Made by a program: the position numbers and the translations under genes. A DNA stretch of 64,000 nucleotides from the human T2T-CHM13v2.0 reference genome, Homo sapiens, in the NCBI RefSeq assembly GCF_009914755.1, contig NC_060938.1; one strand, written 5' to 3'. The notes beneath the pieces are model-generated. The model was not told the DNA's origin. It ran no database searches and saw only the letters and a program-made list of their open reading frames with translations. Of this stretch, positions 57,254-60,678 are shown piece by piece; within the stretch, counting starts at the first letter, position 1, and the number at the start of each line of letters is the position of its first letter.

Positions 57254-57619
<366 letters not shown>

Positions 57620-58091
57620 GTAAAAGACATTGCTGAGTTTCGCACCTGGACTTACAGCTCAGCAGGTGGGAATCCTTTTGTATTTGGGCCACTCATCATC
57701 TTGCTGGCGTGTGAGGATTCACATCTCCTTATCACCTTACCTGTTTTCAGTTTTTATTTAATTTTATTAGTTCCCCACTTGACGTCCTTCTCTATTTTTA
57801 ATTCAGCTATGAATTAGTATTGAGAATTAGAATTTTTGGTGAAAAATTTGGCCGTAGTTGCAGAGTCACTGTCCTCTTTCCTTTTCACAGTGAGAACTGT
57901 TGTCTTCTTCCTGGCAACCTTTTATAGGATTCTATGGCCAGTGTTAATCCCATAATTTGAGCTCACTTATTTTATATGACTGTACATTTAACAGAAGATT
58001 CTAAGACAGGTTTGAGGGAAATATGTTAAAGGTGCTGTGTACTGAATTGATCATAATGAATGAAATACTTTTATTTCCTTTCCCTTTGTAG

Positions 58092-58212
58092 CTGAGATGA
58101 GTGAACTGAGTGTGGCACAGAAACCAGAAAAACTTTTGGAGCGCTGCAAGTACTGGCCTGCTTGTAAAAATGGGGATGAGTGTGCCTACCATCACCCCAT
58201 CTCACCCTGCAA
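58092..58212 (+). CDS. ZC3H14: ZC3H14 exon 13 (CCCH finger 1: CKYWPACKNGDECAYHH)
   Basis: ttccctttgtag| ... TGC AA|gtgagt; 121 nt. Confidence 0.96.
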
Positions 58213-59242
58213 GTGAGTACCATCCCCCCATCTCACCCTGCAAGTGAGTACCATCCCCCCATCTCACCCTGCAAGTACCATCCCCCATCTCACCTGGCAA
58301 GTACCATCCCATCTCACCCAGCAAGTACCATCCCCCACATCTCAACCCTCAAGTGAGTACCATCCCATCTCACCCTGCAAGTACCATCCCATTTCACCCT
58401 GCAAGTACCATCCCCCATCTCACCCTGCAAGTACCATCTCCCCATCTCACCCTGTAACTACCATCCCATCTCACCCTGCAAGTGAGTACCATCCCTGCAT
58501 TTCACCCTGCAAGTACCATCTCATCTCACCCTGCAAGTACCACCCCCTTATCTCACCCTGCAAGTATCATCCCCCATCTAGCCCTGTAAGTGCGAGTACC
58601 ATCCCCCATCTTACCCTGCAAGTACCATCACCCACTTCACCCTGCAAGTACCATCCCCCACCTCAGCCTGCAAGTACCATCCCCCACCTCAGCCTGCAAG
58701 TACCATCCCCTATCTCACCCTGCAAGTACCATCCCCATCTCACCCTGCAAGTATCATCCCCCACCTCACCCTGCAAGTACCATCCCCCATCTCACCCTGC
58801 AATTGAGTACCATCCCCCATCTCACCCTGCAAGTACCATCCCCCATCTCACCCTGCAAGTGAGTACCATCCCCCATCTCACCTTGCAAGTACCATCCCCC
58901 ATCTCACCTTGCAAGTACCATCCCCCATCTCACCCTGCAAGTACCATCCCCCATCTCACCCTGCAAGTATCATCTCACCCTGCAAGTGAGTACCATCCCC
59001 CCATCTCATCCTGCAAGTACCATCCCCCATCTCACCCTGCAAGTACCATCCCCCATCTCACCCTGCAAGTACCATCCCCCATCTTACCCTGCAAGTGAAT
59101 ACCATCCCCATCTCACCCTGCAAGTGAATACCATCCCCATCTCACCCTGCAAGTGAATACCATCCCCCATCTCACCCTGCAAGTGAATACCATCCCCATC
59201 TCATCCTGCAAGTGAATACCATCCCCATCTCACCCTGCAAGT
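58187..59242 (+). repeat. Minisatellite, ~39 units of ~23-32 bp, consensus TACCATCCCCCATCTCACCCTGCAAG(TGAG)
   Basis: Direct head-to-tail units counted by eye; first unit is the last 26 nt of exon 13 plus its donor. Confidence 0.97.
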
Positions 59243-60141
59243 CATAGCCAGCTGATTTTGGCTTTCAGTTTAGTGTCTGTATCTTACACCTTATTTTGTT
59301 TTTGTTTTTCTGTGGACAAGTTTTTAGTTTTATAACTAAATGGAGTGACAATTACCATGGCCCTCTCCAGAGTAGCGTATTTCTTGTTCATGTATGTTTG
59401 TTGAGAGGCAAGGGTGGGGGGGCTTTGTTTGTGCCTCGGACCTGTGAGATACTGAAATACCTGGGGTTCCTTAAGAATTCTGTACGTTTAAGCAGATGGG
59501 TATATGGTAACTGCCCCAGTTTGTATGCATTTTGGCCACACGCAGTATACACAGATTTTGAGGAGTTGAGGGAAAAGTTAGTTATGGGTAATGAAAACAT
59601 TTTGGACTTGGGTTAAATTTTTCCTTACAAGCTGGCTGGCTCAATGTAATGAGCTTTATGAGATGGCTTTTTGGGGCTTCTTTTTTTTGCCGGGGGTAGG
59701 TCCTATGGATGGAATCTTCATTTTTAATTCTTTTAAGGAAATGATGTGGGAATAATACAGCTGTACATATAAGGAGAGTATGGGATGAGTCTTTTTGTAT
59801 CACAAAGCCTTGCATAGAGGATGTGTTTATTGTATTAATGAGTTCACTGCATAAAATATATACCTTTTTTATTAAGTGGTGTGATTTTTATCACAAAAGC
59901 TTGTCTTTCTTGGTGGCTTGGCTTGAGTTAAAAGCCTGTGTTTGTGTTATCCCAAGCTTTGGAATAAATGATTGTGTCCTATTTTGATATATGGTCTTAT
60001 TTTAAAATATTCTTTTTGTTGCTGTTTTTTTTGCATTTCTCAAAACAAGTAGTGATGGGGAGTGTAAAGAGCCCTTATACACAGAACTAATAATGCATTG
60101 AGAAGATTGAATATGAAATATGCTTTTTTTTTGTTTTGTAG

Positions 60142-60278
60142 AGCCTTCCCCAATTGTAAATTTGCTGAAAAATGTTTGTTTGTTCACCCAAATTGTAAAT
60201 ATGATGCAAAGTGTACTAAACCAGATTGTCCCTTCACTCATGTGAGTAGAAGAATTCCAGTACTGTCTCCAAAACCAG
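60142..60278 (+). CDS. ZC3H14: ZC3H14 exon 14 (CCCH fingers 2-3)
   Basis: ttttgtag| AFPNCKFAEKCLFVHPNCKYDAKCTKPDCPFTH..PKP G|gtgagt; 137 nt. Confidence 0.96.
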
Positions 60279-60586
60279 GTGAGTGAGTGACTGTGCTACT
60301 ACATTTGGGTAAAAAATATAAAATGGCATTTTGTGACTGTAAATGGAATTGAACAAACAAAAGATGGTTTCAGAAATAATTTTGGCAGGATCAGTTAATC
60401 CAACCAGTCTTTAAAGAGCAAGTGTGCCTATCTGTAGTATTCCGAAGTATTTTGACTAGTGAATATATAAACCTTACCATTCTAATTTAAAAATGGTTTT
60501 CACTTTCAAAAAAAACATCAGTAGACTGCATTAAAAATGGGTTTTCCAAACAGATTGGAGATCAGTCCTGGTTTTTATTTTGTTAG

Positions 60587-60678
60587 CAGTTGCACCACCA
60601 GCACCACCTTCCAGTAGTCAGCTCTGCCGTTACTTCCCTGCTTGTAAGAAGATGGAATGTCCCTTCTATCATCCAAAA
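60587..60678 (+). CDS. ZC3H14: ZC3H14 exon 15 (CCCH finger 4)
   Basis: NAGNAG acceptor tag|cag|; CRYFPACKKMECPFYHPK|gtaaga; 92 nt. Confidence 0.95.

What the first reader, a model, noticed from the sequence alone, without database searches (positions are those of the whole stretch)
58187..59242. Minisatellite made of the exon 13 end plus its 5' splice site: an array of decoy 'poison' donors
Seen: unit 1 is the last 26 coding nt of exon 13 plus GTGAG, amplified to ~39 units. Copies of the native donor CAA|GTGAGT recur with the intronic G at 58244, 58353, 58482, 58859 and 58986. CAA|GTGAAT variants lie at 59095, 59124, 59153, 59183 and 59212, and a GTAAGT at 58586. Most units have lost TGAG, leaving weak CAA|GTACCA. 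Reading through the true donor gives TGC AAG TGA (stop 58214-58216), so any downstream donor yields a premature stop upstream of further exon junctions. Established: such transcripts are NMD substrates, and competing identical donors often favour the intron-proximal site. Inference: unit number and composition could act as a polymorphic rheostat on ZC3H14/MSUT2 dosage for all isoforms, or strong silencing must protect the first donor.
Basis: partly seen in the sequence, partly recalled or inferred. Interest (0 to 1): 0.8.

Follow-up and report, generated by a model that had tools for sequence, protein, structure and literature searches.

The report
Intronic minisatellite repeating ZC3H14's splice donor
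A 39-unit tandem repeat starts inside ZC3H14 exon 13 and copies its splice donor into the intron; the same layout is already described in F7, CBS, IFI6 and ABCA7, where the extra donors are silent or used in only a small share of transcripts.

Summary
TRF finds one array at 58187-59242: period 26, 39 copies, score 1168. Its first unit is the last 26 nt of exon 13 plus GTGAG. The first copy, 31 nt downstream, is identical to the native site from -18 to +33. Any array donor leaves the in-frame TGA at 58214-58216 in the mRNA.

This is a known kind of element, a minisatellite whose first monomer spans an exon-intron boundary: IFI6, CBS, LMNB2, PDGF and F7, and ABCA7. In F7 only the most upstream donor is used. 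In ABCA7 the one-unit isoform is about 2% of transcripts and does not depend on repeat length.

For ZC3H14, no exon end that the gene table lists for other transcripts lies in the array. One old retrocopy carries the canonical exon 13-14 junction.

Most likely this is an intronic minisatellite with silent decoys and at most low use of the +31 site. I found no paper on this repeat. I file it as a new member of a known kind, of modest interest.

The parts
58092..58212 (+). ZC3H14 exon 13 (121 nt). It encodes a CCCH zinc finger. The last 26 nt (58187-58212, YHHPISPCK) form the first monomer of the array.
   Evidence: Gene table supplied with the finding; sequence. A PDB search aligns the finger and the residues after it with fungal Nab2 fingers, weakly (E 0.037-0.075 for a 40-aa query).
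58213..58218 (+). Authentic donor of intron 13, CAA|GTGAGT. It matches 8 of 9 consensus positions, with a U1 duplex of -7.1 kcal/mol.
   Evidence: Among the 16 annotated donors of the gene in the window, U1 duplex energies range from -4.5 to -13.0 kcal/mol.
58214..58216 (+). In-frame TGA that remains in the mRNA whenever any downstream donor is used.
   Evidence: plus the hand sum of coding lengths (1747 nt before exon 13).
58187..59242 (+). Minisatellite of 39 units of 19-32 nt (mode 26). It is C-rich (45% C, GC skew about -0.65). The intronic part, 58213-59242, is 1030 of the 1929 nt of intron 13.
58241..58249 (+). First decoy donor, +31 nt. It is identical to the native site from -18 to +33 and would give a 152-nt exon.
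58350..58358 (+). Decoy donor CAA|GTGAGT, +140 nt (261-nt exon).
58479..58487 (+). Decoy donor CAA|GTGAGT, +269 nt.
58583..58591 (+). CCT|GTAAGT: perfect intronic hexamer with a poor exonic side. U1 duplex -6.5 kcal/mol.
58856..58864 (+). Decoy donor CAA|GTGAGT, +646 nt.
58983..58991 (+). Decoy donor CAA|GTGAGT, +773 nt.
59092..59241 (+). Distal block of five 29-30-nt units carrying CAA|GTGAAT (+5 G to A). These are weak sites, with a U1 duplex of -2.2 kcal/mol.
60142..60278 (+). Exon 14, the acceptor shared by the native and all decoy donors. It is preceded by a T-rich tract.
   Evidence: Gene table

Best explanation
This is an intronic minisatellite whose first monomer spans the exon 13-intron 13 boundary of ZC3H14.

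Origin. A 31-nt segment (the last 26 coding nt plus GTGAG) was duplicated in tandem. The array then grew mainly as a 26-nt derivative that lacks four bases of the donor core. The growth mechanism, slippage or unequal exchange, is inferred.

Content. The array holds five exact copies of the donor 9-mer, one GTAAGT and five weakened GTGAAT sites.

Behaviour (inferred). By analogy with the same architecture in F7, LMNB2 and PDGF, the splicing machinery uses the most upstream site, the authentic donor, almost exclusively. That choice follows from position, not from silencing of the copies. As in CBS, IFI6 and ABCA7, the nearest copy (+31 nt) may be used in a small share of transcripts. Such transcripts would carry the TGA at 58214-58216 and would be expected to undergo nonsense-mediated decay. 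The distant copies would give exons of 390-894 nt and are expected to be essentially unused.

Status of the steps. The anatomy and the premature stop are shown. The origin from coding sequence is shown only weakly. Splice-site choice, decay and polymorphism are inferred.
For: Anatomy.

Direction of origin. Unit 1 encodes the last His ligand of a CCCH finger, the linker and the first Cys of the next finger. This segment aligns with fungal Nab2 fingers at weak E-values (0.037-0.075). A roughly 79%-identical processed pseudogene on contig 6 carries the same exon end. The coding sequence therefore predates the array.

Precedents (PMC1557585; abstract, introduction, one results section and discussion read).
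- Boundary-spanning minisatellites are listed for IFI6, CBS, LMNB2, PDGF and F7.
- In F7 only the most upstream of five to nine identical sites is used.
- The pseudo-sites are functional only when the upstream ones are inactivated.
- Sites raised to a consensus value of 91 still do not compete.
- No intronic regulatory element was found.

ABCA7 (PMC5954066; passages and one section read).
- A C-rich 25-bp repeat includes the exon 18 donor.
- The one-unit retention isoform is about 2% of transcripts, rises with cycloheximide and is independent of repeat size.

Locus-specific evidence.
- The gene table names no exon end of another ZC3H14 transcript inside the array, although it lists 15-nt and 3-nt variants elsewhere.
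- The one informative retrocopy of two found (contig 6) joins exon 13 to exon 14 at the native donor.
- Predicted accessibility does not separate the native site (0.229 unpaired) from the first decoy (0.221). That is consistent with choice by position.
Against: No RNA data for this locus were available, so silence of the decoys is inferred from annotation and analogy. Decay-sensitive isoforms are under-represented in curated transcript sets.

The ZC3H14 donor matches more of the MAG|GURAGU consensus (8 of 9) than the F7 sequence UGG|GUGGGU printed (6 of 9 by my hand count, no call). In model substrates with strong duplicated sites the intron-proximal one wins once the separation exceeds about 30-45 nt. 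The decoys here lie at +31 to +773 nt.

In IFI6, CBS and ABCA7 the nearest pseudo-sites are in fact used.

The retrocopy is about 21% diverged and may predate the array, so it says little about present splicing.
Confidence: 0.68

Rival explanations
1. The reiterated donors compete effectively with the authentic one and divert a sizeable share of transcripts to decay. The number and composition of units would then set ZC3H14 (MSUT2) dosage as a polymorphic rheostat.
For: Five exact copies of the donor exist, the first in a 51-nt identical context. Every decoy use leaves the TGA 363 nt or more upstream of the last exon junction (hand sum from the gene table; stop position). Strong duplicated sites favour the intron-proximal one in model substrates. 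Pseudo-sites are used in IFI6, CBS and ABCA7. Exon 13 is common to all protein isoforms.
Against: No exon end listed for other transcripts in the supplied gene table lies in the array. In F7 the upstream site wins absolutely. In ABCA7 the decoy isoform is about 2% of transcripts and does not change with repeat size. Twenty-six of 39 units lack the donor core, and five more carry the weak +5 A. Four of the five exact decoys would give exons of 261-894 nt. Poor definition of such long exons is my recalled knowledge.
Confidence: 0.1
2. An ABCA7-like length effect without decoy use. The roughly 1-kb C-rich RNA (67 runs of three or more C) would act as a platform for poly(C)- or pyrimidine-binding proteins, or simply lengthen the intron. 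Long alleles would then lower intron 13 removal efficiency or raise skipping of exon 13 or 14.
For: C3+ runs occur at 6.5 per 100 nt against 1.1 in the window, and there are 31 TCTC/CTCT motifs. The array is 53% of the intron. In ABCA7, skipping of the exon downstream of a similar C-rich boundary repeat rose 3.2-4.1-fold with length.
Against: No binding or splicing data exist for this locus. The gene table shows no exon 13 or 14 skipping among the listed alternative exons. The assignment of binding proteins is recalled knowledge, not a test.
Confidence: 0.15
3. The array, or its size, is an assembly artefact.
For: None found. Repeats are the usual place for such errors.
Against: The array has many diagnostic unit variants in an ordered arrangement: 31-nt units at the 5' end, 26-nt units in the middle and 29-nt units at the 3' end. 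It lies in a telomere-to-telomere assembly according to the supplied annotation.
Confidence: 0.01

Closest known systems
F7 intron 7 37-bp minisatellite (Borensztajn et al. 2006, PMC1557585)
   Same: The first monomer spans the exon-intron boundary, and the authentic donor is followed by identical pseudo-donors in the intron. It is the experimentally dissected model for how the first site is chosen.
   Different: F7 has 5-9 units of 37 bp, only 4 exonic nt in the monomer, and a weaker donor (UGG|GUGGGU). ZC3H14 has 39 units and 26 exonic nt. Most of its units have lost the donor core, and its exact decoys are irregularly spaced (+31 to +773 nt).
ABCA7 intron 18 25-bp VNTR (De Roeck et al. 2018, PMC5954066)
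   Same: It is a C-rich repeat of about 25 bp that includes the exon's donor. Use of the next unit's donor adds one unit, shifts the frame and gives a cycloheximide-sensitive transcript.
   Different: In ABCA7 the repeat starts at the GT, not inside the exon. The decoy isoform is about 2% of transcripts and independent of length. The length-dependent effect there is exon 19 skipping. Nothing is measured for ZC3H14.
CBS intron 13 minisatellite and IFI6 (6-16) intron 2 minisatellite
   Same: [quoted passage not shown]
   Different: I know these only through that introduction and did not read the primary papers. That the IFI6 units are 12 nt and in frame, and that CBS repeat number was associated with enzyme activity, is my recollection and comes from no call.
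Duplicated strong 5' splice sites in model pre-mRNAs (Hodson et al. 2012, PMC3413131, and work cited there)
   Same: Two identical donors compete for one acceptor.
   Different: Those are artificial globin or adenovirus substrates with near-consensus sites and short introns. Natural boundary minisatellites behave the opposite way.

Membership tests
Boundary-spanning minisatellite with reiterated 5' splice sites (IFI6, CBS, LMNB2, PDGF, F7, ABCA7 class) | Head-to-tail array of units of roughly 10-100 bp | tested here: met
   TRF: period 26, 39 copies, score 1168; 39 units segmented.
Boundary-spanning minisatellite with reiterated 5' splice sites (IFI6, CBS, LMNB2, PDGF, F7, ABCA7 class) | The first monomer contains the exon-intron junction | tested here: met
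   Unit 1 is 58187-58217. The annotated exon end is 58212 (gene table).
Boundary-spanning minisatellite with reiterated 5' splice sites (IFI6, CBS, LMNB2, PDGF, F7, ABCA7 class) | The exact sequence of the authentic donor recurs in the intron | tested here: met
   There are five exact 9-mer copies. The first is identical from -18 to +33.
Boundary-spanning minisatellite with reiterated 5' splice sites (IFI6, CBS, LMNB2, PDGF, F7, ABCA7 class) | Copy number varies between individuals | not testable with these tools
   Only one human assembly is held. Five pairs of identical neighbouring units suggest recent duplication but do not show polymorphism.
Boundary-spanning minisatellite with reiterated 5' splice sites (IFI6, CBS, LMNB2, PDGF, F7, ABCA7 class) | The authentic, most upstream donor dominates; pseudo-sites are silent or minor | tested here: inconclusive
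   Evidence is indirect only. No exon end listed for other transcripts in the supplied gene table lies in the array, and one old retrocopy has the canonical junction. No RNA data were available.
Splicing coupled to nonsense-mediated decay ('poison' splice site) | The alternative site introduces a stop more than 50-55 nt upstream of the last exon junction | tested here: met
   The TGA at 58214-58216 is retained for all six candidate donors. It lies at least 363 nt before the exon 16/17 junction (hand sum from the gene table).
Splicing coupled to nonsense-mediated decay ('poison' splice site) | The alternative junction is actually made and rises when decay is blocked | not testable with these tools
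   No transcript data. Four literature searches found nothing on this locus.

The most novel reading that the evidence does not exclude
The array is length- and composition-polymorphic in people. Its alleles would measurably tune ZC3H14/MSUT2 output in one of two ways: through the +31 or +140 decoy donors feeding nonsense-mediated decay, or, as in ABCA7, through length-dependent mis-splicing of the flanking exons. That would provide a common natural dosage series for a gene whose loss causes intellectual disability and whose reduction suppresses tau pathology in models.
Probability: 0.1. Interest if true: 0.7.

Novelty: new member of a known kind. Interest (0 to 1): 0.3.

Why it matters
ZC3H14 (MSUT2) dosage matters. 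Homozygous loss causes intellectual disability, and loss suppresses tau pathology in worms, cells and mice. A 2026 review states that no human data exist on whether reduced dosage affects tauopathy (passages of PMC13730566).

A repeat sitting on the donor of the first exon common to all isoforms is an obvious place to look for natural dosage variation. The ABCA7 repeat shows that such an element can carry disease risk.

The locus would also be a natural test between two published rules for choosing among identical donors. One is that the first site wins by 5'-to-3' scanning. The other is that the intron-proximal site wins under double U1 occupancy. The first decoy lies at 31 nt, close to the reported threshold.

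The architecture itself is already described in six genes, and the default expectation is that the decoys are nearly silent.

Tried and rejected
- Literature: 'ZC3H14' with 'VNTR' gave 2 irrelevant papers. With 'tandem repeat' and 'splicing' it gave 12 irrelevant papers. With 'minisatellite' it gave none. With 'sQTL' it gave 1 irrelevant paper. Papers holding 'ZC3H14' and 'exon 13' gave isoform context only.
- The genome-wide catalogue of splicing-associated tandem repeats (PMC10078293) does not mention ZC3H14 in its main text. [quoted passage not shown] Supplements of other repeat-expression catalogues were not examined and may list this repeat.
- The paper on ZC3H14 splice variants (PMC2680464) is not held.
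- RNA structure as the discriminator is rejected. Every GUGAG can pair with the CUCAC in each unit. The local hairpin is -4.5 kcal/mol, and 15 of 200 shuffles fold as well. Native and first-decoy sites have the same predicted accessibility, 0.229 against 0.221.
- Array units acting as acceptors is rejected as unlikely. There are only 4 YAG in 1030 nt, and 36 of 48 AG are AAG.
- Known RNA family: 0 Rfam matches at E up to 1 in 57500-60600.
- Recombination-hotspot 13-mer CCNCCNTNNCCNC (recalled motif): no exact match inside the array. Of 9 in the window, the nearest is at 59405-59417 on the minus strand.
- Selection against donors: of the 12 intronic units that carry the insert, 5 keep an intact donor and 7 carry a weakening change, from three apparent events (G+1 to T at 58803, a CG insertion at 58590-58596, and +5 G to A in five units). 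With 84% unit identity, roughly 0.84^9 or about 0.2 of 9-mers would stay intact by chance (hand estimate). There is therefore no sign that donors are preferentially destroyed. Concerted evolution makes this test weak.
- Age of the expansion could not be addressed, because no primate or other mammalian genomes are held.

Full report
**What is in the sequence**

Tandem Repeats Finder reports one array at 58187-59242 with period 26, 39.0 copies, 84% matches and score 1168. Its 3' part (58971-59242) also reads as a 29-nt period.

Splitting at the recurrent ...CAAG boundary gives 39 units of 19-32 nt, with 16 of exactly 26 nt. Unit 1 (58187-58212) is the last 26 nt of ZC3H14 exon 13, which ends at 58212 according to the gene table supplied with the finding. 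It is followed by GTGAG. The next 31 nt repeat this with a single difference.

Of the 39 units, 26 lack the 4-5-nt insert, 7 begin with TGAG, 5 with TGAA and 1 with TGCGAG. The array is ordered: 31-nt units at the exon end, mostly 26-nt units in the middle, and a block of five 29-30-nt TGAA units at the far end. Five pairs of neighbouring units are identical.

The intronic part is 1030 of the 1929 nt of intron 13. It is 45% C and 10% G, with GC skew near -0.65. In the window's own genome, all 11 of 11 matches to a 114-nt piece of the array lie within the array. The tool warns that repeat counts are lower bounds.

**The donors**

The native site is CAA|GTGAGT with G at 58213. The same 9-mer occurs 8 times in the 64-kb window against 0.78 expected, and 0 of 100 shuffles reach 8. 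Six of the eight are here: the native site and copies with G at 58244, 58353, 58482, 58859 and 58986.

- The copy at 58244 is identical to the native site from -18 to +33.
- The others share 3-18 nt upstream and 14-23 nt downstream.
- CAA|GTGAAT lies at 59095, 59124, 59153, 59183 and 59212.
- CCT|GTAAGT lies at 58586.
- There are 21 CAA|GTACCA and 3 CAA|GTATCA.

I computed a U1 duplex energy with a recalled 11-nt U1 5' end. It gives -7.1 kcal/mol for the native 9-mer and its copies, -6.5 for the GTAAGT site, -2.2 for GTGAAT and -2.8 for GTACCA. The 16 annotated donors of the gene in the window range from -4.5 to -13.0. This is a crude score. No maximum-entropy or neural splice predictor was available.

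**The stop**

Coding parts before exon 13 sum to 1747 nt (hand sum from the gene table), which places codons at AAG 58211-58213 and TGA 58214-58216. Translation of exon 13 extended to each of six candidate donors gives the first stop at 58214 in every case.

With the nearest decoy, the stop would lie 27+137+92+107 = 363 nt before the last exon junction (hand sum). Such transcripts would meet the usual rule for nonsense-mediated decay, which is established knowledge and was not tested here.

**Which came first**

Unit 1 encodes YHHPISPCK: the last His of a CCCH finger, a short linker and the first Cys of the next finger. A 40-residue translation of exon 13 aligns with fungal Nab2 zinc fingers through this segment. 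The E-values are weak, 0.037-0.075, as expected for so short a query.

A processed pseudogene on contig 6 (locus L010, 77-86% identical over 12 of the 17 exons) carries the same exon end joined directly to exon 14.

The 26-nt unit differs from the 31-nt one mainly by loss of four bases of the donor core. Whether its spread reflects selection or drift cannot be told. Of the 12 intronic insert-bearing units, 5 keep an intact donor, no fewer than the array's 84% unit identity would predict (hand estimate).

**This is a known kind of element**

A search for intronic repeats with cryptic donors led to Borensztajn et al. 2006 (PMC1557585). I read its abstract, introduction, one results section and discussion.

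[quoted passage not shown] It lists five genes:
- IFI6 (6-16): 25 pseudo-sites, with the two nearest used.
- CBS intron 13: 15-20 repeats, with two pseudo-sites used.
- LMNB2: only the authentic site used.
- PDGF: only the authentic site used.
- F7 intron 7: 37-bp units, five to nine copies.

The F7 minigene results were:
- The wild type used only the authentic site.
- Inactivating sites one after another always activated the next most upstream one, with more exon skipping as the distance grew.
- Pseudo-sites strengthened to a consensus value of 91 did not compete.
- No intronic regulatory element or distinguishing secondary structure was found.

De Roeck et al. [quoted passage not shown] Use of the next unit's donor adds 25 nt, shifts the frame, makes up about 2% of transcripts and rises with cycloheximide. 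[quoted passage not shown] What rose with length was skipping of the downstream exon, by 3.2-4.1-fold.

**The opposing rule**

It holds for strong duplicated sites in model substrates. There the proximal site is used almost exclusively, and its use rises beyond about 30 nt separation to about 100% at 45 nt or more (passages of Hodson et al. 2012, PMC3413131).

The ZC3H14 native site and its first copy are 31 nt apart, near that threshold. The other exact copies lie 140-773 nt away. The two rules make opposite predictions here, which is the most interesting aspect of the locus.

**Evidence at this locus**

No RNA data were available, and what exists is indirect.
- The supplied gene table lists alternative exon ends as subtle as a 15-nt alternative donor (53892) and a 3-nt alternative acceptor (60590), but none in the array.
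- The contig 6 retrocopy has the canonical junction. The contig 5 retrocopy has a deletion across the junction and is uninformative. The contig 6 copy is old and may predate the array.
- Predicted RNA structure does not separate the sites. Each GUGAG can pair with the CUCAC present in every unit. The local hairpin is -4.5 kcal/mol, and 15 of 200 shuffles fold as well. The mean unpaired probability over the 9-mer is 0.229 for the native site and 0.221 for the first copy.
- Four of the five exact copies would make exons of 261-894 nt. That such long internal exons are poorly defined is recalled knowledge.

**Verdict**

My confidences are:
- About 0.68: an intronic boundary-spanning minisatellite whose extra donors are silent or nearly so because the most upstream site is chosen. 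The +31 copy may be used in a small share of decay-prone transcripts.
- About 0.15: an ABCA7-like length effect through the C-rich RNA, which has 67 runs of three or more C, or 6.5 per 100 nt against 1.1 in the window.

I found no paper that mentions a repeat in ZC3H14, and no entry in the supplements of one splicing-repeat catalogue that could be searched (one file not searched). This instance therefore appears undescribed in the library I could search, but the kind is well described.

Exon 13 is described as the first exon common to all isoforms. ZC3H14 dosage is of interest for intellectual disability and tau pathology (passages of PMC13730566). The locus deserves a look in junction and long-read population data, but the expected result is ordinary.

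Noticed in passing
L010 (own genome contig 6, about 95,656,480-95,659,575, minus strand): Processed pseudogene of ZC3H14, 77-86% identical. It matches exons 2-8 and 13-17 without introns and has no match to exons 9-12. Exon 13 is joined to exon 14 at the native donor.
   Followed up: partly
L011 (own genome contig 5, about 23,368,967-23,372,046, minus strand): Older and more decayed ZC3H14 retrocopy (69-86% identity over exons 11-17). A deletion removes the end of exon 13 and the start of exon 14.
   Followed up: partly
window 58217-59098 (+): Directly after the in-frame TGA, the coding frame stays open for 293 codons through the array. The 26-nt unit has no stop in any frame, and it gives a repeating peptide such as ISPCKYHPPSHPASTIPHLTLQV. 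This is a by-product of the C-rich repeat, and nothing suggests it is translated.
   Followed up: no
window 58201-58248 (+): Every unit carries CUCAC, the exact complement of the donor core GUGAG, and the palindrome UGCA. The native donor and the first decoy can therefore be drawn into one nested helix. A 141-nt fold gives -34.7 kcal/mol, z -3.18, and 1 of 200 shuffles folds as well. It masks both sites alike.
   Followed up: partly
window 58170-58182 against the array units: In the 141-nt fold, the exonic G-rich stretch (AUGGGGAUGA) pairs with the C-rich exon end (UCACCCCAU, part of unit 1). By eye, the similar CCAUCCCCCAU of every unit could make the same pairing, so 39 units could compete for one exonic partner. 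The significance is unknown.
   Followed up: no
window 59405-59417 (-): One exact match to the 13-mer CCNCCNTNNCCNC (a hotspot motif recalled from memory) lies about 165 nt beyond the end of the array. There is none inside the array.
   Followed up: no
window 59963: A single AATAAA lies in the unique, T-rich 3' part of intron 13.
   Followed up: no
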